Origin: Chiloscyllium plagiosum | Taxonomy: Eukaryota | Reading direction: 5' to 3' | NCBI RefSeq assembly: GCF_004010195.1 | Contig: NC_057755.1 | Span: 6,245,474 to 6,309,473 of the forward strand | Length of the DNA stretch: 64,000 nt | Shown: positions 2,990 to 43,874 of the stretch, one piece after another | Position numbering within the stretch: position 1 is the first letter of the stretch | Layout of the letters: the number at the start of each line of letters is the position of its first letter | Made by a program: the position numbers and the translations under genes | Notes under the pieces: generated by a model | Seen by the model: the letters and a program-made list of their open reading frames with translations, nothing else | Database searches by the model: none | What the model was told of the DNA's origin: nothing

Positions 2990-3861
2990 TCGTTCCCTTC
3001 ATTAACTAAGAGTGTCAATAATGTAACTAGATACATCAACACAGTTTTGAACTGGTTACTGAACTTGGACTGAGTCACTGCATAAATGAATGTGTTTGTG
3101 AAGCAACTAAACACACCAGCATAACTCCAACATGTAAGAAGATATGTACAGAACCAGTATAATAGTTGGAATTTGTTCCTGCAATGTAATAGTGTATAAA
3201 GAATAGAACAAATACGAACCACCGGAGTATTAAGCTGCCAGAAATGGAGGAAAGTATAATTATGCTCTCCATTTCTGCGTCATTTTGATTCTCACCTTTG
3301 GTTCAGTCCATTACGGACACAACTAGCCAGTAAAATACATCTGACTATCGGAGCATTGAATAACAGAATTAAAACAAATGGGAGCAATGGGCATAAAACG
3401 GTATCCATTCCAAGCAGGTTCAGTGAAATAAATTGACTCTATCTCACAGAACCACGGGACGTTGCTCATGATTTTCCAATCTTTCAATGTCTCATAGAAG
3501 GTTATATTCTTTACGAAGATTAGAATGCAGGTTGTTGACAGGACCAGAGCAGTAGCTTTCGCTGTGCAATATTTTGTTTTGAACTTCTGGCTACAAATGG
3601 CCACAAATCGATCAAAGGAAAGAGTGGCAGTAAACCAAACTGAACAGTCTCTGGCTGCACGACTCAGCACATAAATTGCACTGCACAAAGGAGTGATGTT
3701 CAGGAAAGATACATGAAAAGAATAATGATTGATTTGTGTCTGTATGAACTCAGTTACAACAACCAGAAGATCAGCAATTGCCATTGCCATCATATAGTGC
3801 GTGGTACATGAAGATAGGCCATATTTTCCATGGTACAGAATGACAATTACCAGTAAATTAA
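2990..3861 (-). pseudogene. GPR139/GPR142-like class A GPCR pseudogene 1, main exon (TM1-TM7)
   Basis: Acceptor cttcctcacatgcag|TTAAT. Peptide VNLLVIVIL..YMMAMAIADLLVV..DCSVWFTATLSFDRFVAICSQKFKTKYCT..VPWFC..EPAW. TM5-7 (PLLPF, ISGSLIL, CFTNTFIYAVTQSKF) is spread over several frames, indicating deletions and frameshifts. Confidence 0.9.
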
Positions 3862-4609
3862 CTGCATGTGAGGAAGAAGAAAAGAAAAATAGACTGTAAG
3901 TTACAAATGAAACATACATAGTCAATCAAGTTGCAACTCTAAGGGCATGGAAGTTTGTTTGGTGCAAAATGTTGCATTTAAATCATTAAATCTCAGAGTC
4001 CAGGTTGAGTCGAAAATGACCATGACTCAATTTTCCTGAGTTTGGTTTGCAACACATCCCGGAGACTGGCAATTGCAATACAACAAAATGTGCTGTACCT
4101 GGCCCTATTTGAACTAGCACACTTGATAAACCAGAACAAGTTACATACGTAAAATACCATGAAGTGAACTGTATTACTCTGTATAATTATTGAATGCTTT
4201 TATTTACCTCAATGTTAATATATTTGTTGTTCAATTAAATAGCCAATGAAATATCAAGAGTTGCTTCAATTTTTAATCAATTTCTCCCGAAAAATGACAT
4301 TGTCCAAGTTATAGTTAACAGGTTCTCTGCCAGTAAATGCTTTTTAAGGCAACATTGCATTATTGTTTCAGTGATTTGTACTGTTAATAACAATGGTATG
4401 GAGACCCCCCGCATTATCTTTTAACGACATAGTGTGTATTTTGTCATTGATTATGTGAACCTATTGATTATCTGAAATATTTGATTGCCCGTCACACTCC
4501 TGATCCCATAGATATTTATTCCTCTCTTGTTGCAGGTTCAACAACACACAACAATCCCTATACTGCCTACATCAAAGCATTAAATTTCTTGAAATTCATC
4601 CATCATCTT

Positions 4610-5036
4610 TAACTTCATTCCATTCGTCACAGAGGCTCAGTATCAGCAGCATGTTCCATCCACAAGATTTTTTGTCATAACTCATTCAGGTTGTTTTTCA
4701 CCGCAGAATCTCACCAAAGATCCTCAGACAGCACTTTCCAGACACAAGACCACTCCCATCTAAAAGTACAAGGACATCAGATACATAGGAACACCACCTC
4801 CAAGGACCCTCCAAGCTACACATCATTCGGAAATAATTCATCATTCCACAAGGGTGACTGCATAGAAATCCTGGATTTCCCTCGCGAAGGGCATTGTCTG
4901 TCTACGTACAGCAAATAGACTGCAATGGTTCAAGAAGTGAGCTCACCCTCACCAGCTCAAGGGCAACTAGGAACAAGCAATAAATGCTGGGCCCAGCCGA
5001 CGGCAACAGCATTCCACCAACGAATTAAAAGAAAAC
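4610..5036 (+). mobile_element. LINE 3'-end remnant (family ending gggcaataaatgctgg...gaattaaaa); related pieces near 2530-2720 (-), 21000-21330 (-) and 46650-47080
   Basis: The same tail motif recurs at several positions in the window and ends in an A-rich stretch. Family not determined. Confidence 0.6.
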
Positions 5037-5159
5037 TTCTTGTCTTTGCATTTTATAGTTCCAATTGAAACCCCACGCTTTTATCCCTCTCCTAACTCCT
5101 GGCTGTAAAGGATCTCATACTTCAGTCCACCCATCACCTTTGCTGGTTGTGTTAACTTT

Positions 5160-5760
5160 TATTAGTTGAGAGATTGGGTTTTGGAGCCATGAGGTCATCT
5201 GCAGCTGTAGAAAACCCTTGTGCATCTGCACTTAGTGTATTGTGTGCAGTTCTGGTCGCCACATTACAGGAAGGATGTGGCAGCATTGGAAAGGGTACTG
5301 AGGAGAGTTACTACAATGTTGACTGGTTTGGAGGGACGATCTTACGAAGAAAGATTGAGAGACTTGAGGCTGTTTTCGTTGCTGAGAAGAAGGTTGGAGG
5401 TGGCTTGATAAAAACATATAAGATATTGAGAGGGTTGGATAGGGTGGACAGTGAGAGTCTTTTTCCTCAGATGGTGATGGCTAGCACAAGGGGACTGAGG
5501 TTTAAGTTGAAGGGAGATAGATTTGGGACAGATGTTAGAGGTAGTTTCTTTACTCAGAGAGGAGTAGGGGTATGGAACGCACTTCGTGCAGCAGTTGTAG
5601 AATCGCAAACCTTTCAGGGCATTTATCTGGTTATTGGATAGACGTATGGATGAAAATGGTAGAGTGTAGGTAAGACGACCTTCGGATTGGTTTCACATTT
5701 TGGGACAATATCGAGGGCCGAAGAGTCTGTAATGCACTGTAATGTTCTATGCTCTGTGTT
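5160..5760 (+). mobile_element. CR1 LINE 3' fragment
   Basis: HLVYCVQFWSPHYRKDVAALERV and TYKILRGLDRVDSESLFP..FFTQRGVGVWN peptides; ttctatg-type tail. Confidence 0.9.
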
Positions 5761-5978
5761 TTGAGGTCCTGAATACACTTACCAAGGTGGACACGGTAAG
5801 CACATTTATTTATTTTTGATGGTAAACTGCAGGGAATTCTGTTAAAAATTAAATACATGCCATGTGAGAGAGGACGAGAGTAATGAGAGGACTCCTACTC
5901 TCTCCAAGATAGCCTCTCTGTCTCAGAACATAGTGGACGCTGAATCATTGATCATTTCTAAAGTGCCAGAGGACACTT

Positions 5979-6745
5979 ACAGAGAGAGACATGGGTGTTT
6001 ACAGAGAGATCTTGGTGTTTAGGTCCATTGTTTCCAGAGAGATCTGGGTGCTCAGGTTCCTTGTTCCTTCAAGGTGGAAACGCAGGTCGGTATAATGGCC
6101 AATAAGTCTTACGGTATGCTTTCCTTCATTGGACGGGGTATTGAGTACAAGTGTTTACAGGTCATGTTACAACTGTACAGGATTTTGGTTTGACCACACG
6201 TGGAATGCTGCGTACAGTTCTGGTCACATTACCAAATGGATATGCATGCTTTGGAAAGAGTACAGGAGAAGTTCACCAGGATGCTGCCTGGTAAGGAGGG
6301 TGCTCGCTCTGAGGAGAGTTTGAATAGATGAGAATTATTTTCATTAGAAAGACGGACGTAGAACTGGGACCTGATTGTGGTCTACAAAATCATGATAGGT
6401 ATTGACAGGGTGGATAGTGAGAAGTTTTTTTTTCCAAGAGTATGGAACTCAATTACTAGGAGTCACGAGTTCAAAGTGAGAGGAGACAGGTTTAGTGGAG
6501 ATATGTGTGCAACGTTCTTTATGCAGAAGGTGGTGGGGGCCCGGAACGCATTGCCAGTGGAGGTGGTATAGGCGTGAACGATAGCATCAGTTAAGATGTA
6601 TCTCGACAGATACATGAATGGGCAGCTAGCAGAGGGATACAGATCTTTCGAAAGTAGGTGGCAGTTTTAGATAGTAGATCTGGATCGGCACAGGCTTGCA
6701 GGGCGGAAGGGCCTGTCCCTGTGCTGTAATTTTCTTTGTTCCTTG
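5979..6745 (+). mobile_element. CR1 LINE 3' fragment with stuttered 5' junction
   Basis: VYKIMIGIDRVDSEKFFFPRVWNSITRSHEFKVRGDRF..FMQKVVGARNALP peptide; 3' UTR ggcggaagggcctgtccctgtgctgta. Confidence 0.88.
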
Positions 6746-6754
6746 TTATTTGCT

Positions 6755-6945
6755 TCAGTTTCCTCCCACTATCGAATGACGTACAGGTCGGGTGATTTGG
6801 TCATTGCCCATAATGTGAGGTGCAAAAGTCAGTGGTAAATATAAGCTAAGGGAATGGGTCTGGGTGGGTTACTCTTTGGAGGGTCGGTGTGGACTTATTG
6901 GGCCAAATGACCTGTTTCCTCACTGTGGGGAATCTAATCTAAATC
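6755..6945 (+). mobile_element. HE1-type SINE, 5'-truncated
   Basis: Matches the 3' half of the SINE at 30151, including gggtcggtgtggactt..gggcc..tgtttcc and an (aatct)n tail. Confidence 0.75.
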
Positions 6946-7384
6946 GAGGTAAATTCTTGTTATGTAACGGTATTGGATATTATCATCAGTAGATGGAAAC
7001 TTAAAAATTTGGGAAAACACTGTTAGTTGTGATATTGGAGAATGACAGAGGAGGCCGAAAGAGACAAAATCTTTCCTTCACGGTGAAATCACCAACTCAT
7101 ATGCCGGGACTGTAGGTTTCAGTCTCCAATTGTGCCTGATTCATACATATGCATTCCTAGCCAAGCCCTTACCCTGGTTTTGTACCACAACAATCACCCT
7201 CCGCACCATCTGGATTTGGACGGTCAGAGAGCAGTAATTTCTCTTTGGGAATAAAAGAACATTGATTTAAAATACGCCTAAAAATGTATATATATCTCTA
7301 TATATGGGTGAGGTCAACTGCGGTTGCCCAGTATTTCTTTGTAAGTTGATTGATTCTGCAACTAGATGACTCATCACCATCCAA

Positions 7385-7650
7385 ACACTCTCACACACAC
7401 TTATATATCGATACAAACACTCTCACGCGCACACACACACACAGACTTGCATATAAAGATAAGATGCCTTACACACACACACGTGCACATATCCATGCAC
7501 ACTTATCCACACGCACACATTCATTCACTTACACAATCATATCTACAAATGCACACAGACACATACACAAACACTCTCATAATACATCCGCAGACACAGT
7601 CTCTCTCGCACACACGTGCAGTTGCACAAATGCACAGGCACACATATAGC
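7385..7650. repeat. Degenerate (CA)-rich simple repeat
   Basis: Interrupted cacaca/acacat runs. Confidence 0.85.
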
Positions 7651-7803
7651 GTGCTTCATAAAATTGGTCAGTTCTTGGAACTTTCTAATGTCGCTCCACA
7701 TTAAACAGATTGAACAATGCTCATCGGTGTGGTTGATTTTTGAGAATGGGATGCATATCTCACTCAAAATGTAGAATCATTTCAATGTGCCTCTTTGATG
7801 CTT

Positions 7804-8699
7804 TTAGTTGTGTTTATGAATCAGTTTATTGATTGATGTAATTGCAAATTTTACCAACGTTGTTAACAGTTCCCTAAACTTAGATTGAATCGTCCCATTA
7901 AAAAAGTGTTTGTGCAGCAGGTCAAAACGTGAAGTAAATCACTAACATTTTCAAAAATGTTTTCTGAATCTGTGTAATCTTTGGGATCTGGTCGTGTAAT
8001 ATTAAAAGATGATAATTCTATAACACAAGAAGAATGAAACTGCCGGATATTGTGAAGATTAAAATCACAGACTTCCTTCTGCTCTCCGTCTCTGAGTCAC
8101 TATGACTCATTCTCTTGCTCTGACCCATCAATCCTTTGCGGACCTGACTGGCCACTAAAATGTTTGTAACTGTCAGATCATTAAGCAGCAGAATTAAAAC
8201 AAATGGAAGCAATGGAGTTAAGACTGCATCAAATCAATCGAATCCCAATCACCCAGGCTGAGTAAAGTACTCTGCTTCATAATCACAGAACCAGGGGACA
8301 TGTTCAATGACCAACTGAGGTTCAAGTGTGAAGTAATTTGGAATATTATTTAAACAGAACAAAACACTGGCTGTCATTAGAATTTTCACTGCAGTTTCTG
8401 TGTACAAAAGTTTATTTTCAATTTCTGGCAACAAATAGCCACAAATCTATCAAAGGAGAAAATGACAGTGAAACATCCAGAATAGTCACTGGCTACTTTA
8501 CTCAGGGTGTCGATAACACCACATACTGGAGAAATGTCCAGAAAAGACCCTGAGAAATAATAACAACTGACCCGCCACAGAATAACCTCTGTGATAATGA
8601 AAAGGATATCTGCCAATGCCATGGCCATCAGTTAGAACGTGGTGCATTTCGAGAGAGCACACTTTCCGCAAAAGAAGATCACAATCACCATTAATTTAA
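7804..8699 (-). pseudogene. GPR139/GPR142-like GPCR pseudogene 2, main exon
   Basis: VKLMVIVIFFCGKCALSKCTTF*LMAMALADILFII..FSFDRFVAICCQKLK..VPWFC..QPG*..LLPFVLILLLN..ESRRKSVILIFTISGSFIL..CCTNT..QSKFRE. Contains stops and frameshifts. Acceptor mutated (ctgtcctgcAA). Confidence 0.9.
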
Positions 8700-9004
8700 T
8701 TGCAGGACAGAAAGGAAAAGTAGTATCGATTAATTTAATTAATTTCTTATTCCAGTGAGCAGGATGCAGCGTTTGAGTACCAACACCCAATCAGAATTTA
8801 AAATTTGAAGCTAATTCAATGTTAACAATTATCATTATGTATTCCACATACCTCTTTATTGAGGACAACACAATTGATTAATAATTTATAGGTGATTACA
8901 TGGCAATTTAGGAATTTAAAAACAATTGGTACTGCTGATTTCACATGTCTGATTGGCATTGCATTAACAGGAAAAGCAGTCTTATTAGATGTTACGCAAG
9001 ACAC

Positions 9005-9640
9005 AGAGAAGAGAAGGCTGAATGGGTACCTAATTGAAGTGTAAAAGATTCTGAGGGCCATGGAAAGGCATGGATATGGTAAATACACTCAGTTTTTTTT
9101 TCAGGGTTGGGGACTCGAGGCCATTAGTGAAGGTGAGATCAGAAAGAATGAAAGGGAGCCTGAGGGGTATTTTTTATTTACACAGAGAGTGGTATGCATG
9201 TGGAATGAGCGGCCAGCAAAAATGGTTGAGGCGGGTACCCTAACAATATTTGAAAGGCAGTTGGACAAATACATGAATAGGAAAGGATTAAAAGGCCATA
9301 GGCTGAGTGCAGAGAAATTGGGTTACTGTAGATGGACTTTTTAGTCAGCATGGAACTGTTTGGGCAGAAGTGCCCGTCTCCATACTATCAAACTCTATGA
9401 TTCTATTACTCCATGACAGGGTGGATATAAAGCAGCTGTTCCCCTCAGTTGAAGGCTTAATGACCTTATTTTAAAGTGAAAGACAGGACGTTTGGAGGAG
9501 ATTTGAGGACGAGTGTTTCCATTCAGTGGTTGGTCGGGGTTTGGGAGGTCAACACAAACAGGAAACCTTATAATATTTAAAAGGTACCTAGTTGAGCACT
9601 TGAAATGTCCCAAAGGTTGAAGGCTGTGGGCCACGTAATG
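9005..9640 (+). mobile_element. Two adjacent CR1 3' fragments in the intron of pseudogene 2
   Basis: FTQRVVCMWNERPAKMVEAG peptide and ctctatgattctatt tail; the second fragment starts gacagggtggatata. Confidence 0.75.
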
Positions 9641-9901
9641 GAGACCACAGCACCATTTCGCCAGCCCAATACATTTTCATAAAAGATTGTAAATTGGCCG
9701 TTCTGTGAACTCCAGAAAACTGTTGATTTTCATTTACTCCATTTGGATAAAACTAAAAATTCAGGAGACTTTTGAAAACGAAGAAGTTTTGAATTCAGTA
9801 GATCAATCATAAGATCCTCACATGTAGTTTGTCATTCAAGCTGAGATATAAACGACTGATTCCCATTTTTCACACATATTTTCATTACATCAATGATTCA
9901 G

Positions 9902-9968
9902 CAGGAACACCCAGAATCGCAAGTGTCGCATAATAGATTTTCATGACACTAAAAAATGTATCAAACAT
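9902..9968 (-). pseudogene. GPCR pseudogene 2, short first coding exon
   Basis: ATG-MFDTFFSVMKIYYATLAILGVP+G, 67 nt, phase 1, matching the phase of the main exon (V-N/K-L). The donor reads CTGAAT instead of GT. Confidence 0.85.
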
Positions 9969-10866
9969 GTTTCTATTCAGGATTACTATCTTTCCTTACT
10001 ATGGGAACTTCTCTGCATCAAATACCGAGTCAAGATAATCACATAGCCTTTATTTTGTACCAAGTTTCCACCTCCAGGGAACACTGAGGTTATAACATCT
10101 TCAAATCAAATTTACAAAAACACAAATGGACGCAGCTACTGTCACAAGTTCACTTGCTGTTGTGCTAAAATATATTTGGTACTTGGAGATATTTATATAA
10201 CATGGCTAATCATAATTAGCCCATTTGTCAATGTCAGTGTTGTTTTTCGAGAAAGTGTTGTTAGTTGAAAAACACAACCATTTGGTATTCATGCTGTGAT
10301 AAATTTCTTCGCTTTGTTGCTGCCCTTCAGTAATTAACTTCCAAGTATGAGCGCATCTTGAACAGAGTTCTCCCCAGCTCTCTGTCATGTGACTGTACTC
10401 GTGAACTTGTGCTTATTCAATCAACTTATTGAATATATGTCAGTAGATAATCGAGTTATGTTGTGCACCTCGATAACAAATATTTGAGCTGTTCATAGCT
10501 AGGCTTTGAGATTACACATTGTGCAGCCTGGATTTGCTGATCACTCTGATAGAATACAATTTTCAACAGTATTGGCCATGTTCAAGTTAAAAGCAAACAT
10601 AGGAGCTTAGTGAATGCCCGCTCCACTCAATAACCTCACATCTGACTGAGTACTGAGAGGAAATTTAATCGACCTGTCCTGTCGGTCCTGAGAGAAACTG
10701 TATGAGGGTGAAACTTATTTGGCATTGTTACCATTAATTATGTAATTTGATTCACCAAGAAATGATTACTATCTCAGTAAAACTCTAAGCAGGTCTATCC
10801 CTCGTATTAATATCACTTCCTCAGCAATGATTCCTGCTTTTGTAAACCTTACCAGCAGACAAAACT

Positions 10867-12002
10867 CATAGAATATAGAGCAATACAGTGCAGAACATGT
10901 CCTTCGGCCCTCGATGTTGCGCCGAACCATGAACTATTCTCAGCTCGTCACCCTACACTATCCCATCATCATCCATGTGCTTATACAAGGATTGTTTAAA
11001 TCCCCCTAATGTGGCTGAGTTAACTACATTGGTAGGTAGAGAATTCCACGCCCTTACCACTCTCTGAGTAAAAAACCTGACTCTGAAATTTGTCTTAAAT
11101 CTATCACCCCTCCATTTGTAGTTATGCCTCCTCATACAAGCAAATCCTCCCTTATCTCTGAAATACGTGCACTCCCAATCTCTGCCAAATACCAACTGAT
11201 TGAATTTTTTCATCCTTTACTTTTCAATTGGTCCATTCCTCATCTATGTTAGTGCGCAGAGACATTCACACCTTCATATCGTCGGTTACACAACTGATCA
11301 ATTTTAACTTCGATTGACTTCACATGACATAGACATAGACATAGACATAGAGGGAAAAAGTTTCTGACTGTTTACTCTATCTATTCCTCTGATCATCTTA
11401 TAAACCTCTATCAAGTCACCCCTCATCCTTCGCCGTTCCAACGAGAAAAGGCCGAGAACTCTCAACCTATCCTCGTACGACTTATTCTCCATTCCAGGCA
11501 ACATCCTGGTAAATCTTCTCTGCACCCTCTCCAAAGCTTCCACATCTTTCCTAAAGTGAGGCGACCAGAACTGCACACAGTACTCCAACTGTGGCCTAAC
11601 CAAAGTCCTGTACAGCTGCAACATCACTTCACGACTCTTGAATTCAATCCCTCTGCTAATGAATGATAATACTCCATAGGCCTTCTTACAAACTCTATCC
11701 ACCTGAGTGGCAACCTTCAAAGATCTATGTACATAGACCCCAAGATCCCTCTGTTCCTCCACCTGACTAAGAACCCTACCATTAACCCTGTATTCTTATT
11801 TGTTCTTCCAAAATGGACAACTTCACACTTGGCAGGGTTGAACTCCATCTGCCACTCCTCAGCCCAGCTCTGCCTCATATCTAAGTCCCTCTGCAGCCGA
11901 CAACAGCCCTCCTCACTGTCCACAACTCCACCTATCTTCGTTTCATCTGCAAATTTACTGACCCACCCTTCGACTCCCTCATCTAAGTCATTAATAAAAA
12001 TG
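10867..12002 (-). mobile_element. CR1 LINE (RT C-terminal half plus 3' UTR), split by a (CTATGT)n tract and about 185 bp of other DNA at 11142-11350
   Basis: ORFs 11717-11923, 11304-11762 and 10953-11213 give young-looking CR1 peptides (KFAD, WQMEFNPAKC, LEYCVQFWSPHFRKD, FFTQRVVRAWN). Confidence 0.92.
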
Positions 12003-13060: not shown

Positions 13061-14360
13061 AGGTGCTGAACCCTTAACCCTTCTATTAATGAAATCAAAC
13101 TTCGCATCTAATCTTTTCTGGCTTTCCAGCTGCAATAGTTTCTTGGATTTCGATTTGGTTACTTCCTGAAGGTACAGAAAATCCGACACGAATTAGAGCC
13201 ACATCTGCCTCAGTCTGTTTTCCCAAACAAGCGCAGCTCAACCCCATCATGACTTTGACAGACATTTGCAATTATGTCATCGATGGTTCTCATAGGAACC
13301 ATGAAACCCCAGGTTATATCTTAATCCCTTGGAAAGTGACAGTGCCTTCGTATTTCCGCTGGGCTTGTTATCCAGCATATCAAGCATTGTTCAAAAGGGA
13401 GATCTTGTGATGCAGTGGTTGCGATTCTGTCTTTGAACTAGAAGGATTGGGTTCATGACTGACTTCATCTAATAGTGTGCCATAAAATATCAGAACACAA
13501 TGCATCGAAAAAAATGCCCTCAGTTGCTGATCTCCATTCTGAAAAATATTCCTCCACCACCGCTCTCTGCCTTCCAAAACCTTTTGACAAAGGGTATACG
13601 TCTTGACTTGTCTATTCGTCTACTGTCATATCCTTGTAGCTTTATGATGCAGATTGAAGACAACATGTGAGTTCAACTCCCACACGGGGCTGGGATTACC
13701 ACAAAAGACTCATGTTTCAACCTCTCCCCTCACCTGAGGCCGAATGACTCTCAGGAAAAATCACTACGAGACCTCTGTGTTGAGGAAGGATTACTTGCAC
13801 AACGATGGGACACATCAGTAATTGAGGGAGGAATGTTCGTGTGGAGGACGTCCAGAAATTGTACAACATGATTCTTGCTGTCTTTGGTATGCCTTGCAAA
13901 TGAATTTAAACATTTCAGAACTTAAAACGTTTTAACTGGGTCTGACAATGTTACGTGGTGATCACTTCAGCTGGTCACTTGCTTATTCAAATGTCTTGTT
14001 TTGTCTCCGAACTTTCTTCCTCCTTTTAGATGATAATGTGAATTCAGATCAGAGAATTACATTATGGTCTCGTCAAAAATAAAGTTATTCTCAGTAAGAA
14101 GCAACTGTTTGGTCTCAGTCAGTCAGTCTTATTGAATTTCACACACCGTTAGAGTTTCTGTGCGCACATGGAATAAAAGTAATGATGAGACGAGGTAACC
14201 TAAAACTGAATGGGAGTTGCATCAAGTGGTCTAAGGAACTTAACAATAAAAGTGAGTTCAATGGGAATGCATGTGAAATATCGCCAAATGTTGCACAATA
14301 AACGATGAAAGGAAATAAGTTTTCAATCCTTTTTTTTAATCAATTATGAAACTGTACTGA

Positions 14361-15078
14361 CAATGTTATGCAGGGTACAAATCCTCGCAGCTCATTGCCA
14401 TAGTTCAACAGTGTACAAACCCTAGCAGCTCATTGCCATCGTTCTACAGTGTACAAACCCTGGCAGCTCATTGCCATCGTTCTGCAGTGTACACGTCCGA
14501 GCAGCTCATTCCCATCGTTCTACAGTGTACAAACCCTGGCAGCTCATTGCCAGCGTTCTACAGTGTACAAACCCTGGCAGCTCATTGCCATCGTTCTGCA
14601 GTGTACGTGTCCGAGCAGCTCGTTCCCATCGTTCTGCTGTGTACAAACCCTGGCAGCTCAAACCAATCATTCCGCAGGGTACAAACCTGGCTGCTCATTA
14701 TCATCTTGCTTCCGACTCGAAAACCTGACAGCTCATTGCCATCATCCACAGTGTGCAAACCCTGGCAGCTCATTACCATCAATCTGCAGGGTACAAACCC
14801 TGGCAGTTCATTCCCATCGTTCAACAGTGCACAAACAGTGGTAGCTCATGACCATCTTCCGACAGTGTACAAACCCTGACAGATCATTGCCATTGTTCTG
14901 CAGTGTAAAAAACCTCGCAGCTCATTGCCCCCGTTCTACAGTGTACAATAACTGGCAGCTCATTGCCATCTTTCTGCAGTGTATAAACACTGGCAGCTCA
15001 TTTCTAATGTTCTTCAAGGTACAAACGCTGGCAGCTCATTGCCATCGTTCTTCAGCGGCCAGAGCATTGTACAAACCT
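14361..15078. repeat. 38-bp minisatellite, about 18-19 units, consensus CAGTGTACAAACCCTGGCAGCTCATTGCCATCGTTCT(A/G)
   Basis: Unit starts at 14409, 14447, 14485 and 14523 give a period of 38. Head-to-tail with no spacers. Confidence 0.95.
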
Positions 15079-15727: not shown

Positions 15728-15785
15728 ATGATCTTAATAAAAAAAAGCGTGTATGACATGGTCCGGGCGATAGTTGGTCTGCCTG
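15728..15785 (+). pseudogene. GPCR unit A, short first coding exon
   Basis: MILIKKSVYDMVRAIVGLP+G|GTAAGT, 58 nt, phase 1, canonical donor. Same xxGxP end as the exon at 9902-9968. Confidence 0.8.
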
Positions 15786-22741: not shown

Positions 22742-24750
22742 GTAATTTGTTGGCAGTTATGATTCTATCCCACGGACCTAGTGGGATTTCAAAGTGCTCT
22801 ATTCACTACCTCGTGGGAATGGCAATGATTGATCTACTGATGAGTATATTGCAGGTCATATTGAGAGAGGTTGTCTATTATAATGAAGCCCCACTTTTTT
22901 TATGGATGTGACTCCTCCCTTGCCTTGTCTGAAGCAGTCATAGAGTTCTCTGTATGTTTCGCCGTCACATTCTCTTTTGATCGATTTGTAGCTGACTGTT
23001 GCCATAAACTGAGAGCACAATTTTGCACAGAGAAAACTGCAACTGTGGTGCTTTCAGCTTCATTCTGCTCTGTTTGAAGAACGTCCCCAGCTTCTGTGTT
23101 TATCAGCCTCAGAAGATAGTTGACAATATATGGTAAGCTGTTGGAGAAAATGCCGAGGCATGAAATTGAAGGGGGATTTAGCAGTTTGTAATAGAAACTG
23201 GCTTTCTGAAAGAAGGCAGCGAGTGGTGGTTGATGGAAAATATTCAGCCTGGAGTCTGGTTACTAGTGGTGTGCCACAAGGATCTCTTTTGGGACCACTG
23301 CTGTTTCTCAATTTTATAAATGACTGAGACGCAGGCATAGATGGATGGATTAGTAAATTTACAGATGACACTAAAGTCGATGGAGTAATGGACAATCGGG
23401 AAGAATGTTACAGGTTGTAGGGAGACTTGGATAAACTGCAAAATTGGGCTGAGAGGTGGCAAATGGAGTTCAATGCAACTAAATGTGAGGTGACGCACTT
23501 TGGGAAGAATAATAGGAAGGCAGAGTACTTTGTCAATGGAAAGATTCTTGGCAGTATGGATGTGCAGAGGGATTATGGAGTTCATGTACATAGATCCCTG
23601 AAAGTTTCCACACAGGTTGATAGTGCTGTTAAGAAGGCATATGGTGTGTTAGGTTTCATTTGGAGAACGATTGAGTTCTGGCGCCGCAATATCATGCTGC
23701 AACTATACAAAATGCTAGTGCTGTCACACTTGGAATATTGTGTACAGTTCTGGTCGCCATATTTCGGGAAGGATGTGGACGCATTGGAAAAGGTGCAGAG
23801 GAGATTTAGCAGGACATTGCCTGGTTTGGAGGGAAGGTCCTGTGAGAAAAGGCTGAGAGACTTGAGTCTATTCTCAATGGAAAGAAGAAGGCTGAGAGGG
23901 GATTTGATAGAGACATACAAGATGATCAGAGGATTAGATACGGTAGGCAGTGAAATTCTTTTTTCCTAGGATGATGGTGTCAGCTTGTACGAGGGGCCAT
24001 AACTACAAAATAAGAGGTGATAGGTTTAAGACAGATGTCAGAGGCAGGTTCTATACTCAGAGAGTGGGAAGGACGTAGAATGCCCTACCTGCTAATGTAG
24101 TCAACCTAGTCACATTAAGAAGATTTAAACAACTCTTGGATACAACATGGATGATGACTGGAATAGTGTAGGGGACGAGCTAAGAAGAACTCACTGGTCG
24201 GCGCAATATCGACGGCAGAAGAGCCTGTTCCGCGCTGTATTGTCCTCTGTTCCATGTTCTATATTCTATGGTCAAGATAATGGTTTTGATACGTCAAACC
24301 TAGCTCTTATGCTGATCCTGGATAGGTGGGTTATGAGTGCTTTGCGATAGCGTTAACTCCATTGCTCCCCTTCGCTCTCATTCTGTTGATCAATGGTGTG
24401 ACTGTCATACACATTTTAGCATTCAGCCGAGTTCGTGAAGAACTGAAAACCCGTTTCAATGGAGAGAAGCACAGCGCCCCAGAGATGGAAAGCAGGAAGA
24501 AGTCTGTCATTTTACTTTTCACCGTATCTGGTAACATTATACTTCTGTAGTTGATGTTTATCATAATTTTGGGGTTTTTTTTTTTCAAAACTTTAAGGGA
24601 ACATTTTGCACAGAGTCTGAAATGGTATTTCAAGATTTTGGATTCATGTTGCAAAAGGTAAGTTGTTGCACAAACACTTTTACTTATGCAGCAACTCAGT
24701 CGAAGTTCACAGAGAAAATGAAGAACTCGTTGACATCTCTGATTGCATAA
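22742..24750 (+). pseudogene. GPCR unit A, main exon, disrupted by a CR1 insertion
   Basis: Acceptor atctcaaacag|GTAAT. GNLLAVMILSHGPSGISKCSIHYLVGMAMIDLL..FSFDRFVADCCHKLRAQFCTEKTA..[CR1]..PG*VGYECFAIALTPLLPFALILLING..EMESRKKSVILLFTVSG..CCTNTFTYAATQSKF..SLIA*. Frameshifts and stops present. Confidence 0.92.
23131..24270 (+). mobile_element. CR1 LINE fragment inserted into extracellular loop 2 of the unit A GPCR
   Basis: ORFs 23130-23327 and 23427-23969 ([36 protein letters not shown]). The GPCR sequence resumes at tggttt (WF) near 24281. Confidence 0.93.
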
Positions 24751-28827: not shown

Positions 28828-28892
28828 ATGGCTTTTCAAGTGGACAATTTCCAAAGGTATATTATATGATCCTTGCTGTTGTTGGTCTGCTA
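28828..28892 (+). pseudogene. GPCR unit B, orphan first exon
   Basis: MAFQVDNFQ then a frameshift to KVYYMILAVVGL. Donor mutated (TTAAGT). Downstream sequence aligns by eye with the intron start after 15785. Confidence 0.8.
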
Positions 28893-29744
28893 TTAAGTGA
28901 GAATAACAATGGAAGACTTGTAAATGTTACAGTGTGCTCGATGAAGTTACGTGCTGATTGAAAGTGCAGAGACCTTATATTAGGCTGTCATTTTTGTATC
29001 AAATGAGTTGCTTTGTCTCCGCAATTTTATTCCCACTCTTCAGACGATATTTAATCATTGCATACAGTTCAAATATTTTCTAGCAATGATTTACTGCCTT
29101 TCCTGTAATGCAGGATTGAAATGGACATCAGTTAATGTCGTCATTCAGAGGAAGACTACTGGAATCATCTATTCCTGTAGATTTGTGCAAAGTAAGTTTC
29201 ACTGCTGTGAAAGGTTTTCTGCAGTGTTTTTGCATTATTGTGACTATGCATCGACTTGTTCTTGCAATAATGTTTATTTCCTCACCGGAATTAATTAAAA
29301 TTTCTGAATTAAAAACTAGCGTTCACTTTACTCAACCTATTTATTCTATTCGACTGCAAGTTTCTTTTTATTTGTGCATTTTTCTGATGGGGTATAAAAT
29401 AAATGATGGATTCTTTAATGTACAGTCATGGCTTTCCTTTGCGTATACAAGCCGACAGCCCTGTCACTTCATTTCCATGCACGGGATATCAGCAAATAAT
29501 GTTTGAAAATGGGCAATGAAAAGACACAAGGCCAGGAGAGAAATCTTAAAGCTGCACCGAGCGTGTGTGCTTCACAAGTAACAGTGACATGATCCACTCT
29601 TTCCAACAAGTACTAACTCTGCAAACTGTTGAAAATGCTGAGGCTTCTTCTGCCCCATGATCACGGAGAAGTCTATCTCAGTAACTGCATTAGCTTCGTC
29701 CTTCAGTAATTTAAGTAATGTCGTTTTCAAAACAGAAGTCGTAG

Positions 29745-36487: not shown

Positions 36488-36491
<4 letters not shown>

Positions 36492-36543
<52 letters not shown>
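36492..36543. repeat. Perfect (CA)n microsatellite
   Basis: Direct inspection. Confidence 0.97.
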
Positions 36544-36545
<2 letters not shown>

Positions 36546-38282: not shown

Positions 38283-38670
38283 CCATGTACAAGAAAGGTA
38301 GCAAGGATATTCCGGGTAACTACAGACCAGTGAGCCTGAGGTCAATGGTGGGAACGTTGCTAGAGAAGGTACTGAGAGATAGGATCTACTTATATTTAGA
38401 AAAGAACGGGCTTATCAATGATAGGCAACATGGTTTTGTGCGGGGGAGATCGTGCCTTATCAACAAGTTCATTGAGGAAGTGCCCTGTCAAAATCGGACA
38501 AGTCTAGCAAATGCCTTCTTCACTAACCTGTCTACCCGTGTCTCTAGCTTCAAGGAACTGTGAACCTGTATCCCAAGCTCTTTGATTGGCAAGATTCCCC
38601 AGCACTTTACTCTGATTTGCCTTATTAAAATGCAAAACCTCCCATTTATTGCAATTAAACTCCATCTACC
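38283..38670. mobile_element. CR1 RT fragment (+, 38283-38480) joined to a degraded inverted CR1 fragment
   Basis: YKKGSKDIPGNYRPVSL..QHGFVRGRSCL, followed by minus-strand TRVDRLVKKAF-type sequence. Confidence 0.75.
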
Positions 38671-39944
38671 TCCTTCTTCAGAGCTTCAGCCAAACTGTAC
38701 TCAAACGGAAAGAAGTTGTCAATGACAATAAACCATTTTCACTGATTTTCTGATGTTATTACAGCTACAGTGAAATCCTGGGAGAAGTGTGCGAAGTAAA
38801 ATCGATAAGCTGAGAGTAAATAGTATTAGAATCAAGTAGAACATGACAGGCAACAATAAATCTGAGTTCAATGAAAACGAATGCGAGCAGGTTCACTTGA
38901 TGCAGAAATCAAATCCAAAGGAATGCATCCTCTCTTGTTCTACATAAATGGTAAGAATCCTAGCACCTCCTGAACGCATTCAGGATAAAAGCTTCCAGGC
39001 AAATATCTTTAGTTGCTTCATCATTGGAGCACCCTTGTTTATATCTTCAAAAGGGGAACTTGCAATTGTGGCTGTGAATTTTCTGCTCAATTTGAAATTA
39101 TTGATATCGTGAAAGATTCAGTTCTATATGCAACAAGACACATTTAACAATCGTAACTGTGTGATATTTCGAAAGTACGATCAAAACCCCCAGTGGCAGG
39201 CAATGAGCCTTTGAAGCAAGAAAAAAATCTAATCATAACTTCATAATGATTGCCAAATTTGAGATCACCACATTAGCCTCGGTCAACCATCTGAGATCAC
39301 CATCGTCCCAAAGCTGTGTTCGACGAGTCACAGGAATGCTAAGATTTCAAAGCTGTCGTAAAATTATTTCAGCTATCAATTAGCGCTCAAGCGTTAAAAA
39401 TCATCTTTTTTTATAAATGTGTCCGCATTTAAAAAGAATTTCCTAGAAAGAAATCTTTACGCAGAACACCTGTGCTGATCACTCTGAGATTGTACATTAA
39501 ATAAAAACCCACACTTCCAACAAACTGCTGAACCACTTCTTTCTGATTCAGCAAAAACTGTGAGATCACCCTTTGTGCAGAGTTTGCACATTCAGTTTCC
39601 TGATTCTTTCCACGAAGATCTAGGACACTTCCCTGTAATCCAATGTTTTTAAAAATGTATTGATCCAAAAAGGGTTAGAAAAAGATTTAAAAAAAAACAT
39701 ACTGCAGACGTTGTGGACCCGAAACAGGTACAAAAAATGCTGGAGAAACTCCACGGATGTGGCAACAAATGAGAAGAACGAAGCTGTTCAATAAATAACC
39801 CTTACTCTTCTTCAGAACTGCTCCATTAACAGAACAATATCATGATCGATATTTTCTATTCTTAGTCAACGCTCTTTGCAGAGACTGACAACCTGTTGTT
39901 GGATGAAAAATTGAAACTTCGGAGCTTCGATTTTCCATAAGACA

Positions 39945-40335
39945 TTGGCTGGCCGAAAGACGACAGTGAGTGGAATTGGATGCTGACCTGTGGTGTACCA
40001 TGGGAATCTATTCCTGTACCTCTGCTCTCTGTAACTTTTTATTAATGACTTGAATGAAGAAGTGGAAGGGTTGCTTCGTAAGTTTGGGATGACACAAAGG
40101 TCCGTGGTACTATAGATATTGCTGAGGACTGTTGCAGACTGCAACAAAACACTTAAAGAATGCAGAAATAGGTTAAGAAGTGGCAGATGGAGTTCAACCT
40201 GCATAAATGTGAAGTGATTCATTTTGGAAGGTCGAATTTGAATGCTGAATGCAGGGTGAAAGACAGGATTCTTGGCAGTATGGAGGTACAACGGGAAGTT
40301 GGTGTCTATGTACATGGATCCCTCGAAGTTGCCTC
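39945..40335 (+). mobile_element. CR1 RT internal fragment
   Basis: INDL..KFGMT and WQMEFNLHKCEVIHFG..VYVHGSLEVA motifs. Confidence 0.8.
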
Positions 40336-40339
40336 CAAT

Positions 40340-41220
40340 ACACCCTATCCATGCTGGTTTGTTACCCACACCCAAACACTTCATCTCCAAACTCCACTGT
40401 GACATAGACCACCTCAACCTCTCCATCCCTCTCACCCACTCCAACCTCTCACACTCACAATGTGCAGCCCTCCGTTCCCTCCACTCCAACTGTAACGTCA
40501 CCATCAACTCAGCGGAAAAGGCTGGGGGCACAGTGGTAGTTTGACGCCCCAGGCCCTACATTACTAAAACCAGGCGCGAACGCAGACGTCTTCTCCTTCT
40601 GCCCCCTCGACCACACTTCACCTCCATCACCAAACCAACATCTCCCAGACTATCCACAACATCAACACTTCAGGGGATCTCCCACCGACAGATTCAAAAC
40701 TCATCTCGCGTGAATCCACACTGCCCGGTTTTACTTCCTAAATATAGTCACATCCCTGACTGCCCTGGTCAACCCATCTTGTCAGCCTGCTCCTGCTCTG
40801 CTGAACTTATATCTGCATACCTTGACACCACCCTGTCCGCCTTTGTCCAGTATATCCCCACATACATTCAGGATACTGCTGGAAACCTCCACCTCCTCCG
40901 TGACTTCCGTTTCCCCACATCATCTTCTCCATGGGCATCCTGCCTCGTACACACCCATCGACCAAGACAAAGGCCTCTATGCCCTTCATTTCTTCCTCTC
41001 CAGACGACCCAACCAGAACCCTTCTAGTGACACATACATTCGATTGGCTGAACTGACTCAACAATTTCTCCTTCGAATCCTCCCACCAAAAGTGGGTGAA
41101 AAGCACATGCTAAAAAAGTCGCTTCTCCTGCTCCTTGGATGCTGCCTAAGCAGCTGTACTTTTCAAACACCACACATTTCGACTCTGACGTCCAGCACCT
41201 GCAGTCCCCACATTCTCCTA
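40340..41220 (+). mobile_element. Internally deleted Penelope-like element (N-terminal ORF/RT start joined to pLTR tail)
   Basis: SNLSHSQCAALRSL..TINSAEKAGGTVVV, HIPDCPGQPILSAC..YLD..IPTYIQDT and YTPIDQDKGLYAL peptides; tail ctccttggatgctgcc..ccagcacctgcagtc. Confidence 0.82.
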
Positions 41221-41514
41221 TGGCTTTATTCTGACAGAAACATTCTTCTCAACATTTAATGTCAATCCCCGTAAGAATCCTTTGTGCTTCAACAAGGTCA
41301 CTTCCCATTCTTCTAAACTGAGGTGAGGCATTTCCCAACTCTGTCCATAAGTCAATTCCCCCACTTCAAGCACAGTTTTCTTGGTCCTTGCCTGAACTGC
41401 ACCCAATGAAGTGAATCATTTTTCAAATAATTTAACCAAAACTATTCACAACACTCTAGATGTGGCCTCACCCCAAAGAACAATTAATTTTCTCTGACGT
41501 GGCAGGGGTGGTGG

Positions 41515-42470
41515 TGGTTGGGTGTGGGGAGCGTCAGAATCAGAAGGCACAGTTTCAAGGTGAGAGGAGAAAGAATTAAAAGAGACCAAACGGGGATATC
41601 TTCATGCACAGGGTAGTGTTATTTGAATTGACACACCTACAGTGACAACACCTGAAAGACATCTAGATGCGTTCTATAAGCAGAGGTGTTTGGAGGGATA
41701 TGGTCCAAGTGCTAGCAAATTGGACTAGTTTAATCTGGGATGTGTGATTGGTACGGACGAGTTGGACTGAAGGCTCTGTTTCCGTGTTGTACATCTCTAT
41801 GTCTCTATATGAAAATTATGACGTTTACACGGAGGGTTGACTGTAAATGGAAGGAATTTTCTTCTTGTAGAATGTTCAAGGATTATGTGCGTGTGTTTTG
41901 TGCGGATATAAAACGCAGCATATGTGAAACACAGTTGATATGGAAACGGCATCGGCAGTTCATCATATTTGCTGCCCTCATGAATTTCTAAAATCAGGCA
42001 ATGCCATCCCGTGAGCTTCTATGTTCCAGTGTGACAAGTCCCAGTCTGTCCAGCATTTTCTCATAAATCAGAGCCACTATTCCTGGCAGCATCTTGTTAA
42101 ACGTTTTCTGAACCCTCTCTTGCCAAATAATATACTTTTTGCAGCATGGCGAGCAATATTAGACATGGCTGGACAGAAGAGTCTCACCAACACTCTGGGG
42201 AAACACAACATGTGGTCTCAAGTCCTCTACTCAAAGATCTGTGCAATGAAGGGAAGTGTACTAAGGGTCCACTTCACCATCTTATCTGAATGAGACACAG
42301 AATTATGAACTTCCAACGCTAGGTTTTCTGTCTCTCCACACTACTGAAGGCCCTACCTTTAATTGCATAATTCACGTCCCTGTTTGCTTGACCAAAATGC
42401 AACATCTCACATTTATTCAAAATAAACTCCATCTGCAACTGCTCAAGACATTGAAACAATTGATCAAGGT
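41515..42470. mobile_element. Degraded CR1 fragments (+ 41515-41810; - 42040-42470)
   Basis: CR1 3' UTR with ctctatgtctctat tail; minus-strand QMEFILNKCEMLHFG. Confidence 0.7.
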
Positions 42471-42762
42471 TAAATCTTTTCATTGGAAAATCCAATGCGT
42501 GACTAAACAATGAGCCTATACATTTCCCAATCTCAGTCAGGTACCGGTCCAGGGAACAATCATGCATACTCTCCACTAAAAACCTGGTAAGCCTGAATTT
42601 ATTTTAAATGCAATGTTAGAATTTTCAAATTCTACTGGACATAAACCCTCTAATTGCCTCCAGCTTCTCATATCGGTGCTCCACTCCGCTACCCTGATTC
42701 CATCAGGTGCACAGCATGTTTTTCAGTAAATTTCAGCGTCTTCTGCTTTCTTTTTCACGCAG

Positions 42763-43874
42763 TTAATTTGCTGGAAATTATAATTATCTCTTGTGGACAT
42801 TGTGGTATTTCAAAGTGCACGACGCTTTACCTGCTGGCTATGACAATGGTAGATCTTCTCGTCATAATTCTGAAGGTAATATTAAGAATGGTTGTTTATT
42901 ATTATCAATCCCCACCGTTCTTCCTGAACATCACTCCAGTGTGTAGTGTTCATTATGCCATGTGTTATTGCAGCTATAGACAGCACTGTCTGGTTCACAA
43001 TCGCATTCTCTTTTGACCGATTTGTAGCTGTTTGTTGCCATAAACTGAGAGCACGATTTTGCACAGTGAAAATAGCAGTTTTCGTGCTTTCAACAGCCTG
43101 CATTCTGCTTTGCTTGAAAAACGTTCCCACCTACTTTACTTACGAACGTCGGATGATAATTGAAAATATACCATGGTTTTGCAACGTAAAACCGAACTTT
43201 TATACTGATCCTGGATGAGTGGGTTATAATAGCTTTCGTCAGGCTTTAATCCCACTGCTGCCATTCTCTCTAATTTTGCTGATCAACGCTTCGACTGTAA
43301 GACAAATTTTAACATCCAACCGAATATGTAGGGAACTGAAAACCCGCAGCAATGGAGAGAAGCAGAGCGATCCAGAGATGGAGAGCAGGAGGAAGTCTGT
43401 CATTTTACTTTTCGCCATATCTGGTAGTTTTAAGACCATAAGATATAGGAGTTGAAGTAAGGCCATTCGGCCCATCGAGTCCACTCCGCCATTCAATCAT
43501 GGATGATGGGCATTTCAACTCCACTTACCCGCATTCTCCACGTAGCCCTTAATTCCTTGTGACATCAAGAATTTATCAATCTCTGCCTTGAAGATATTTA
43601 GCGTCCCGACCTCCACTGCACTCTGTGGTGATGAATTCCACAGGCCCACCACCCTCTGGATGAAGTTTCTATACTTCACTGGCTGATGTTTGTCATAAAT
43701 TTCTTTCGTTATACCATTGGAGGAAGAGATTGCAACCAGTCTGAAGTGATATTTCAAGATTTTGGTTCCATGTTGCAGCATTTAAATTGTTGCACAAACA
43801 GATTTATTATTGCAGCGACTCAGTCCAAGTTCAGACAGAAAATCAAGAACTCTTTTCAAGCTTTGGTCACTTAA
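42763..43874 (+). pseudogene. GPCR unit C, main exon, disrupted by a frameshift, a stop and a CR1 insertion
   Basis: Acceptor tttttcacgcag|TTAAT. VNLLEIIIISCGHCGISKCTTLYLLAMTMVDLLVII..DSTVWFTIAFSFDRFVAVCCHKLRARFCT..IPWFC..DPG*..PLLPFSLILLINA..EMESRRKSVILLFAISGSF[CR1]..NCCTNRFIIAATQSKFRQK. Confidence 0.93.
43431..43663 (-). mobile_element. Short CR1 3' fragment inserted into TM6 of the unit C GPCR
   Basis: FIQRVVGLWNSSPQSAVEVG peptide and a CR1 tail. Possible AGTTT target duplication at 43426-43430 and 43664-43668. Confidence 0.9.

What the first reader, a model, noticed from the sequence alone, without database searches (positions are those of the whole stretch)
2990..43874. Birth-and-death cluster of orphan GPR139-like receptors: five loci, all dead; possible uncharacterised shark chemoreceptor family
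Seen: four main exons and three short first exons share one architecture, a phase-1 intron splitting TM1 at GxP|VN. They share motifs (AMAxxDLL, FSFDRFVAxCC, PWFC, PLLPF, EMESRRKS, CCTNTFIY..QSKF), are tandemly arrayed, strongly diverged and individually inactivated. Established: mammalian GPR139 and GPR142 are single-copy receptors for aromatic amino acids, and cartilaginous fish have very few classical OR genes. Inference: clustered expansion with heavy pseudogenisation is the pattern of sensory or immune receptor families. This may therefore be part of a large chondrichthyan amino-acid or peptide-sensing repertoire. The window itself shows no function.
Basis: partly seen in the sequence, partly recalled or inferred. 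Interest (0 to 1): 0.8.

Follow-up and report, generated by a model that had tools for sequence, protein, structure and literature searches.

The report
Giant fast-evolving shark receptor family
The window holds four broken copies from a family of at least 1,800 related receptor genes in this shark genome, hundreds of them with open reading frames and some with very fast-changing outer loops, which likely detect many different outside peptides in an animal thought to have only a few dozen smell receptors.

Summary
They belong to a very large receptor family. One exact 33-base motif occurs 1,801 times in this genome (control 0). At least 229 full-length open main exons were listed directly. Rough estimates are about 5,000 loci and 700-1,200 open exons; near the window only 4 of 30 loci are open. 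The genes are not GPR139 duplicates: true GPR139 and GPR142 are single here, and the family groups instead with a separate conserved fish/amphibian/reptile orphan (AU test rejects family+GPR139). It shares GPR139's intron but not its key pocket residues. A young subfamily of roughly 900 copies shows strong positive selection: 15 of 15 selected codons lie in the extracellular loops and pocket mouth. Named relatives are all sharks and rays. Tissue and ligand remain unknown; the RNA evidence is thin. Most likely a sensor array for outside peptides (chemosensory about 0.45, immune/barrier about 0.3). NCBI models call the members 'probable GPR139'; ten literature searches found no description of the family. 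This scan noted the family twice before (a ray genome; another piece of this genome).

The parts
2990..3861 (-). Copy A, main exon (TM1 second half to C-terminus); pseudogene with four deletions; 87% DNA identity to its open twin L002 225 kb away
   Evidence: Pfam 7tm_1 E 3e-10
5136..5884 (.). Stretch where A's first exon should lie by comparison with the twin locus; the homology breaks here and a LINE-like fragment is present (the CR1 label is recalled, not tested on this fragment)
   Evidence: homology blocks end at 5136 and 5884; the twin's first exon falls in the gap
7805..8699 (-). Copy B, main exon; pseudogene (acceptor AA, three stops, three frameshifts)
9902..9968 (-). First exon of B (M...ILGVP), open frame, splice donor damaged
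1251..11327 (.). Inverted segmental duplicate (75-78% DNA identity in the long blocks) of G000:C46 about 6.010-6.024 Mb, carrying A and B
13833..13895 (+). First-exon relic without a main exon; frameshifted, no GT donor
15728..15785 (+). First exon most likely belonging to C; open frame, GTAAGT donor
22742..24750 (+). Copy C, main exon; pseudogene split by a 1,147-nt repeat insertion (about 23130-24277), with frameshifts and stops
28828..28893 (+). First exon most likely belonging to D; frameshifted, donor damaged
42763..43874 (+). Copy D, main exon; pseudogene with a 1-nt insertion, a stop and a 239-nt repeat insertion (about 43431-43669)
49031..49097 (+).

Best explanation
The window is a dead corner of a family of at least 1,800 two-exon class A receptor loci of sharks and rays, which likely works as a large array of sensors for outside peptides in chemosensory cells. 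Shown: copies arise by segmental duplication and most die (4 of 30 loci sampled on this chromosome are open), while several hundred keep an open main exon. The cytoplasmic face is held nearly constant and the outer loops vary; in a young subfamily the pocket mouth is under strong positive selection. Inferred: the constant inner face means one shared G-protein pathway, and the changing outer face means each copy is tuned to a different ligand. Selected sites sit at ECL1, ECL2 and the tops of TM6/TM7 rather than deep in the pocket, GPR139's amino-acid-binding residues are missing, and the wider receptor group binds aromatic-ended peptides, so the ligands are likely peptides rather than free amino acids. 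Untested: the cell type. I favour external chemosensory cells (nose, or skin/gill/mouth), by analogy with the nematode srw family, which expanded from a related neuropeptide-receptor stock.
For: Size: 1,801 exact TM3-motif matches against 0 control; 419 vs 8 and 487 vs 0 for two TM7 motifs that exclude each other; 122 of 150 and 107 of 131 listed matches have full open frames; estimate 5,300 loci (3,700-8,800) and 680-1,160 open exons. Function kept: dN/dS 0.25 over 204 inner codons in the young subfamily; 100 of 101 open exons keep the AG acceptor. Outer face variable: majority identity 0.81-0.95 in cytoplasmic segments against 0.42-0.65 in outer loops across 50 proteins. Positive selection: M2a vs M1a 2dlnL 664, omega 8.4, 15 of 15 sites in the 87 of 291 outer codons defined beforehand; holds in each third of the gene with its own tree, and 9 of 291 codons show 9 or more residues against 38 of 20,000 neutral simulated codons; dS is only 1.3-fold higher outside while dN is 5.7-fold higher. 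Peptide-receptor stock: PMC8557429 passages; srw precedent PMC2576165 passages. Gap to fill: cartilaginous fishes have a mean of 43.8 known olfactory receptor genes but many sensory neurons (PMC10869828 passages); in catshark the presumed V2R co-receptor labels only about 6 cells per mm of lamella (PMC10116579 passages).
Against: No tissue evidence. Of 24 runs listed, 14 RNA-guess runs from 5 studies hold the young subfamily; it is unlikely (my inference) that all are olfactory tissue, which argues against a nose-only role, but RNA status is a guess and DNA may be present. In the 6 runs laid, most contigs run unspliced through the acceptor, and no join to a canonical first exon was seen. The one single-cell run laid gave low depth (about 10-20 summed over hundreds of copies in 2% of the run). 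A canonical first exon was found upstream of only 2 of 14 young copies within 10-25 kb, so many 'open' exons may not be whole genes. The catshark nose is described as V2R-dominated and wholly TRPC2/Go-positive, and no GPCR was among its 50 top-specific genes. In the older subfamily that includes the window's copies, selection is weak (2dlnL 37, omega 2.4; outer 0.32 vs inner 0.31). Omega near 8 is at least as typical of host-pathogen conflict (recalled).
Confidence: 0.47

Rival explanations
1. The family is an immune or barrier sensor array: leukocytes or skin, gill and gut sentinel cells would use it to detect microbial, parasite or venom peptides, much as formyl-peptide and Mas-related receptors do in mammals (analogy recalled).
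For: Very strong, site-focused diversification. Detection in RNA-guess runs of 5 studies, as expected for cells present in many tissues. Cartilaginous fishes are reported to lack MAS1 and its relatives (PMC8455134 passage). Loci are dense on the small chromosomes and on C8 and C37.
Against: No tissue labels; low depth in the one single-cell run laid. A repertoire of many hundreds is more typical of sensory families (recalled). The family is not related to FPR, MRGPR or chemokine receptors beyond the shared class A fold.
Confidence: 0.3
2. Most of the expansion is mechanical: short duplicated segments carrying the main exon spread through repeat-rich chromosomes, and only a modest core of complete genes is functional.
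For: 26 of 30 loci sampled on C46 are broken; 22 of the first 30 young-subfamily motif hits are broken, partial or gapped. Canonical first exon missing nearby in 12 of 14 young copies. Transcripts seen are unspliced or joined to unrelated upstream sequence.
Against: Purifying selection on inner codons and positive selection on outer codons among 38 young open exons that are about 92% identical cannot arise in copies that were dead from birth. First introns of 11 and 22 kb were found, so other first exons may lie further away. Complete two-exon structures with ATG and GT donor are common in older subfamilies.
Confidence: 0.12
3. The receptors act in reproduction or social recognition, for example on sperm or in the oviduct, or as detectors of individual-specific peptides.
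For: Rapid site-specific divergence fits sexual or kin-recognition conflict (recalled). Some catshark V2R genes are expressed in testis (PMC11979771 passage), so receptor families stray there.
Against: No direct evidence; tissues unknown.
Confidence: 0.08

Closest known systems
GPR139 and GPR142 (human GPR139 structure 7VUG; PMC8807744)
   Same: Best sequence and fold match among solved structures; same phase-1 intron in TM1 in this genome's own GPR139; same larger clade against protostome relatives (SH-aLRT 99); NxxxY without the usual TM7 proline.
   Different: Each is single in this genome; only about 30% identity to the family; family+GPR139 rejected (p 5e-11) and family+GPR139/142 rejected more weakly (p 0.029). 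R6x51, E3x32 and P6x50 are not among the seven commonest residues in 74 members, N7x38 is in 9 of 74, H5x43 in 18, F3x33 in 7; the family has a TM3/ECL2 cysteine pair that GPR139 lacks.
Conserved non-mammalian orphans of the GPR139/142 group (L234 and L224 here; possibly the GPR210A/B of PMC6504862)
   Same: Nearest relatives in both trees (SH-aLRT 90-94), followed by amphioxus receptors; same intron position and phase; also auto-named 'probable GPR139'.
   Different: L234 is one conserved gene with orthologues in coelacanth, sturgeon, teleosts, amphibians and reptiles, not an expanded family. Whether L234/L224 are GPR210A/B was not tested; that paper's text does not mention sharks.
Nematode srw chemoreceptor family (PMC2576165)
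   Same: A birth-and-death expansion from myosuppressin/FMRFamide-type receptors, proposed to sense environmental peptides; those receptors form the protostome sister group of GPR139/142; ESM Atlas neighbours carry Srw domains.
   Different: Independent expansion in another phylum; about 150 genes; family members tested hit only Pfam 7tm_1, not Srw.
Vertebrate OR, TAAR, V1R, V2R and T2R families
   Same: Clusters, many pseudogenes, constant inner face and variable pocket.
   Different: Unrelated lineage within class A (or other classes); two-exon structure; these families total about 44 olfactory genes in cartilaginous fishes.
NCBI/UniRef models named 'probable G-protein coupled receptor 139' in sharks and rays
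   Same: These are the family's members: 376 and 2,092 clusters passed the thresholds in two searches, and every named row of the 120 listed in each is an elasmobranch.
   Different: The name is an automatic best-hit label; many models have wrong or missing first exons; no description of the family as such was found.

Membership tests
Class A (rhodopsin-like) GPCR | Pfam 7tm_1 match above cut-off | tested here: met
   Copy A fragment 40.5 bits and open members 65-76 bits against cut-off 30.5
Class A (rhodopsin-like) GPCR | Seven-helix fold with D/E-R-Y/F in TM3, W6x48 and NxxxY | tested here: met
   AlphaFold model of P0109, pLDDT 84.6, seven long helices; D and R in 74 of 74, W6x48 in 73 of 74; Foldseek hits are class A receptors
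GPR139 (orthologue or duplicate) | Groups with vertebrate GPR139 in a tree | tested here: not met
   AU p = 4.8e-11 against family+GPR139; true GPR139 found separately
GPR139 (orthologue or duplicate) | Pocket residues E3x32, F3x33, H5x43, R6x51, N7x38 (PMC8807744) | tested here: not met
   R and E not among the seven commonest residues in 74 members; N 9, H 18, F 7 of 74 (alignment-based mapping at about 25-30% identity)
GPR139 (orthologue or duplicate) | Activation by L-Trp/L-Phe or HFRW peptides | not testable with these tools
   needs a cell assay
Wider GPR139/142 group | Clade with GPR139/142 and chordate relatives against protostome receptors | tested here: met
   SH-aLRT 99 (mixture model) and 93; quick trees only, the careful search did not finish
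Wider GPR139/142 group | Phase-1 intron in TM1 just before N1x50 | tested here: met
   GPR139, L224 and L234, 100 of 101 open family exons; this genome's GPR142 lacks a clean AG at that point in the assembly
GPR210A/B (PMC6504862) | Orthology to the cited Ensembl proteins | not tested
   The cited sequences were not fetched; only the passage was read
Chemoreceptor-type multigene family (works like) | Large clustered expansion with many pseudogenes | tested here: met
Chemoreceptor-type multigene family (works like) | Variable ligand face on a constant signalling face | tested here: met
Chemoreceptor-type multigene family (works like) | Sparse expression in chemosensory neurons or cells | not testable with these tools
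   run tissues are coded; contigs give no levels
Chemoreceptor-type multigene family (works like) | Spliced full-length mRNA | tested here: inconclusive
   One contig joins the acceptor to an exon that ends in a perfect donor in the genome, but it is not the canonical first exon; most contigs are unspliced
OR / TAAR / V1R / V2R / T2R / srw | Match to those families' Pfam models | tested here: not met
   3 of 3 open members scanned hit only PF00001; these families were not placed in my trees

The most novel reading that the evidence does not exclude
Sharks and rays have their own, undescribed main chemical-sensing (or innate peptide-sensing) repertoire: around a thousand working receptors built from a neuropeptide-type orphan related to GPR139, more than ten times their known smell receptors, with antibody-like hypervariable loops in the youngest branch. 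It would be the vertebrate counterpart of the nematode srw expansion and would explain how sharks pair large olfactory organs with so few known receptors.
Probability: 0.4. Interest if true: 0.93.

Novelty: new variant of a known kind. Interest (0 to 1): 0.82.

Why it matters
Published surveys give cartilaginous fishes about 44 olfactory receptor genes and speak of a paucity of GPCRs. This genome holds a GPCR family with hundreds of open members that those surveys did not count, as they covered other families and automatic annotation labels every member 'GPR139'. Whether it serves smell, skin chemosensation or immunity, it is probably the largest receptor family in these animals. It makes an old puzzle (large nose, few receptors) directly testable with existing tissue RNA-seq. 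The hypervariable young subfamily is also a natural library of GPCR binding sites on one scaffold.

Tried and rejected
Strict GPR139 duplication: rejected by tree and AU test. Family loci lie 0.5-1.5 Mb from GPR139 near the end of C21; I considered this a sign of origin and set it aside, because the tree disagrees and family loci sit near many chromosome ends. Recombination or a mutation hotspot as the source of the selection signal: the signal survives separate trees for thirds of the gene and dS is barely raised; a formal recombination or multinucleotide model was not run. Duplicate haplotigs inflating the young subfamily: the highest identity among 38 exons was 97.4% and the next 94.5%, so most are distinct loci; some inflation remains possible. 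The in-frame ATG eight codons upstream of the young main exon as a new start: present in most of the youngest copies and absent in older ones, which neutral inheritance would also give. The sequence joined in run X2 maps to a 31-copy repeat with no GT donor directly after it in 6 of 6 copies read, so it is not proof of splicing. A tissue-marker lay with the probable TRPC2 exon (L197) was planned and not done; both lays went to the receptor. The careful bootstrap tree did not finish. A systematic sample across five further small chromosomes was not obtained, so the old-family calibration rests on C46 alone. The catshark expression supplement could not be read; 12 of 24 whale-shark supplements were not searched. 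Either may bear on novelty or tissue. The earlier-findings look-up by sequence returned nothing.
Full report
What is in the window. Six-frame reading and motif scans show four main exons of a class A GPCR: A 3861-~2990 and B 8699-7805 on the minus strand, C 22742-24750 and D 42763-43874 on the plus strand. A nucleotide HMM built from 62 open relatives finds these four and nothing else in the window plus 200 kb to the right, with no hit in the reversed control. All four are broken by frameshifts, stops or repeat insertions. A first-exon HMM finds five first exons (control 0): three pair with B, C and D, one at 13833-13895 is a decayed orphan, and one at 49031-49097 is open with a GT donor but has no main exon in the next 215 kb. 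A's own first exon is gone: bases 1251-11327 are an inverted duplicate of a stretch 225 kb away, where A's twin (L002) is open and has its first exon 1.5 kb upstream, at the point where the window's homology breaks. A is 87% identical to L002 over 874 nt.

How large the family is. A search of the window's genome (G000, 3.56 Gb) with a 153-residue piece of A scored 150 of 5,677 candidates, all at E below 1e-42; 122 of the 150 have a stop-free frame of 297 or more codons by my count of the table, and in the 30 loci fetched that rule agreed with a direct test (22 open). Exact motif counts are whole-genome: 1,801 for an 11-codon TM3 motif (control 0), 419 for one TM7 motif (control 8) and 487 for a second TM7 motif that excludes the first (control 0). 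The second marks a young subfamily spread along C8 and other chromosomes and unplaced contigs; 107 of its 131 scored copies are full length without stops. So at least 229 open main exons are listed outright. Unselected samples on C46 gave 22 loci (3 open) in 464 kb around the window and 8 loci in 9 pieces (1 open) in twenty spaced 10-kb stretches. Of 40 hits of the first TM7 motif taken from the first 100 listed, 37 were family loci and 17 were open; of the first 30 young-subfamily hits 8 were open. Scaling motif counts by these rates gives about 5,300 loci (5-95%: 3,700-8,800), about 930 of them young, and 680 (470-1,020) or 1,160 (670-1,730) open main exons by two routes. These are rough: the old-family calibration rests on 30 loci of one chromosome, gaps and assembly errors break some copies, and an open main exon is not yet a whole gene. 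'All dead' is thus a local sample of a family in which about one locus in five to eight is open.

Where it occurs. Two protein searches returned 376 and 2,092 clusters; every named row among the 120 listed in each is a shark, ray or skate (two rows carry no species). No chimaera or bony fish appeared in those rows, which are only the best 120, so the range beyond elasmobranchs was not settled here. A locus of G000 is identical to a protein NCBI names from Chiloscyllium plagiosum.

What it is related to. GPR139 is the best match among solved structures by sequence (E 6e-5) and by fold (model of relative P0109, pLDDT 84.6), though only narrowly ahead of other peptide receptors. The genome's true GPR139 and GPR142 are single genes; the family follows at about 30% identity. 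In two quick maximum-likelihood trees (110 rows, 40 of 115 representatives dropped; 44 rows with a mixture model; SH-aLRT only, the careful search did not finish) the family is one clade (100). Its nearest relatives are two other receptors of this genome, L224 and L234 (90-94), then two amphioxus receptors (92-94; names), while GPR139, GPR142 and the cyclostome genes form their own clade (99-100). AU tests reject family+GPR139 (p 5e-11) and, more weakly, family+GPR139/142/cyclostome (p 0.029). L234 is a conserved gene of non-mammalian jawed vertebrates and may be one of the GPR210A/B orphans of PMC6504862 (passage read; not tested). The phase-1 intron before N1x50 is shared with GPR139, L224 and L234 and kept in 100 of 101 open exons. 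Of the GPR139 pocket residues named in PMC8807744 (first third of the text read), W6x48 is kept (73 of 74), but R6x51 and E3x32 are not among the seven commonest residues, and N7x38, H5x43 and F3x33 are minorities. 'GPR139-like' is therefore a loose label for a sister lineage.

How it evolves. Across 50 proteins from many species, cytoplasmic segments have majority identity 0.81-0.95 and outer loops 0.42-0.65. In 38 open young exons (median 92% DNA identity), codons of the outer loops and helix tops, defined by topology before the test, have dN 0.195 and dS 0.174, and the other 204 codons dN 0.034 and dS 0.134. A codon model written here, whose single-ratio likelihood equals IQ-TREE's, prefers a positively selected class (2dlnL 664, omega 8.4); all 15 sites with posterior above 0.95 are among the 87 outer codons of 291. 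They lie in ECL1, ECL2 and at about 6x58, 6x61-62, ECL3 and 7x31-34 (numbering inferred from the alignment). The result holds in each third of the gene with its own tree, and 9 codons show 9-13 different residues where neutral simulation gives 9 or more in 38 of 20,000. Against over-reading: in 24 open exons of the older subfamily that includes A-D the signal is weak (2dlnL 37, omega 2.4, outer and inner ratios 0.32 and 0.31), and no recombination- or multinucleotide-aware model was run.

Expression. A run search with a young copy listed 24 runs; 14 RNA-guess runs from 5 studies hold 0.32-0.49 of its words, none is on record as RNA, and tissues are coded. Six runs were laid. X1 holds a single unspliced contig over one copy and nothing on unique flanks. 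X2, X4, X8 and X11 hold several copies, each including unspliced contigs; DNA cannot be excluded. The single-cell run X21 gives about 10-20-fold depth over the gene against about 1 on flanks. One X11 contig joins the acceptor exactly to an upstream exon that ends in GTAAGT in the genome, so the acceptor is used, but no join to a canonical first exon was seen. A canonical first exon was found for 2 of 14 young copies, 11 and 22 kb upstream; in older subfamilies first exons with ATG and donor are commonly found within 1-7 kb. Expression of complete receptors, and its site, are not shown.

Mechanism. Shown: duplication of segments, frequent death, a constant inner face, a variable and in part positively selected outer face. 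Inferred: one signalling pathway serving many ligand specificities. Peptide ligands are favoured because the selected sites ring the pocket mouth, the amino-acid-binding arginine is absent, and the protostome sister group of GPR139/142 binds peptides with aromatic ends (PMC8557429 passages). The nematode srw family expanded from related receptors and is proposed to sense environmental peptides (PMC2576165 passages; PMC11682238 passages for molluscs). I put external chemosensation at about 0.47, immune or barrier sensing at 0.3, mostly mechanical amplification at 0.12 and reproductive recognition at 0.08. For the nose: cartilaginous fishes have a mean of 43.8 known olfactory receptor genes with many neurons (PMC10869828 passages), and the presumed V2R co-receptor labels about 6 cells per mm in catshark (PMC10116579 passages). 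Against it: that paper describes a V2R-dominated, wholly TRPC2/Go-positive epithelium, no GPCR is among the 50 top nose-specific genes (PMC11979771 passages), and the young subfamily turns up in runs of five studies.

Novelty. The members exist as automatic gene models named 'probable GPR139'. Ten full-text searches (listings and abstracts seen) found no paper describing the expansion. Term look-ups in four shark genome papers (passages only) and one chemoreceptor survey found no mention of GPR139; PMC8455134 speaks of a paucity of GPCRs in cartilaginous fishes. Three supplements of PMC7677710 and 12 of 24 of PMC8455134 gave no hit; the catshark supplement could not be read; subscription journals are not covered. 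This scan noted the family before, in a ray genome (e1-7813824) and on another piece of this genome (e1-9870320); those notes agree but are not independent evidence.

Verdict. Real feature; the five or six loci here are dead members of an undescribed, very large, adaptively diversifying receptor family of sharks and rays. Interest 0.82; new variant of a known kind.

Noticed in passing
L234:1501-2463 (+) = G000:C26 about 36.60 Mb; L224:1501-2481 (+): Two further GPR139-group orphans with the same intron. L234 is a conserved gene with orthologues in coelacanth, sturgeon, teleosts, amphibians and reptiles; no mammal is among the 120 rows listed. It is auto-named GPR139 but is a separate lineage.
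   Followed up: partly
L113:4773 acceptor; L244 (G000:C95777:332-357, -): A contig of run X11 joins the young-subfamily acceptor to an unrelated upstream exon that ends in a perfect donor in the genome and is open in frame with the receptor; the product would lack the first half of TM1 unless that exon supplies one.
   Followed up: partly
L113:4186-5700: Run X1 holds one unspliced 1,547-nt contig of a single young copy, starting where an upstream minisatellite ends, with no cover on unique flanks: one locus transcribed through its acceptor.
   Followed up: partly
L052:1861-2745 (-) and L054:7706-8344 (-), 2 and 28 kb right of the window: Two ecto-ADP-ribosyltransferase-like exons (Pfam ART, E 1e-44 and 1e-41) border the receptor cluster, which ends inside this window.
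   Followed up: partly
L070-L071 (-), about 185-198 kb right of the window: Exons that read like an oxysterol-binding protein (label recalled, not tested).
   Followed up: no
window 8251, 24323, 43216: Copies B, C and D all carry a stop at what appears to be the same conserved Trp codon at the start of TM5, by at least two different changes.
   Followed up: partly
alignment A1: The cytoplasmic loops carry unusually many conserved cysteines (two in ICL1, three in ICL2), and the family lacks the usual TM6 and TM7 prolines; lipidation or a metal site is possible.
   Followed up: no
L245-L250 (G000:C8 and unplaced contigs): A repeat of at least 31 copies, found on C8, C21 and unplaced contigs, is joined to the receptor's main exon in a contig of run X2; its nature is unknown.
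   Followed up: partly
window 53422-54393 (-), 57191-58324 (+), 14371-15055: A reverse-transcriptase fragment, a GIY-YIG-bearing retroelement fragment and an 18-copy 38-bp minisatellite; ordinary repeats.
   Followed up: partly
L197 (G000:C6 about 117.82 Mb, -): The most divergent of seven TRPC-type loci, probably TRPC2 (by elimination); useful as an olfactory marker in a later expression test.
   Followed up: no
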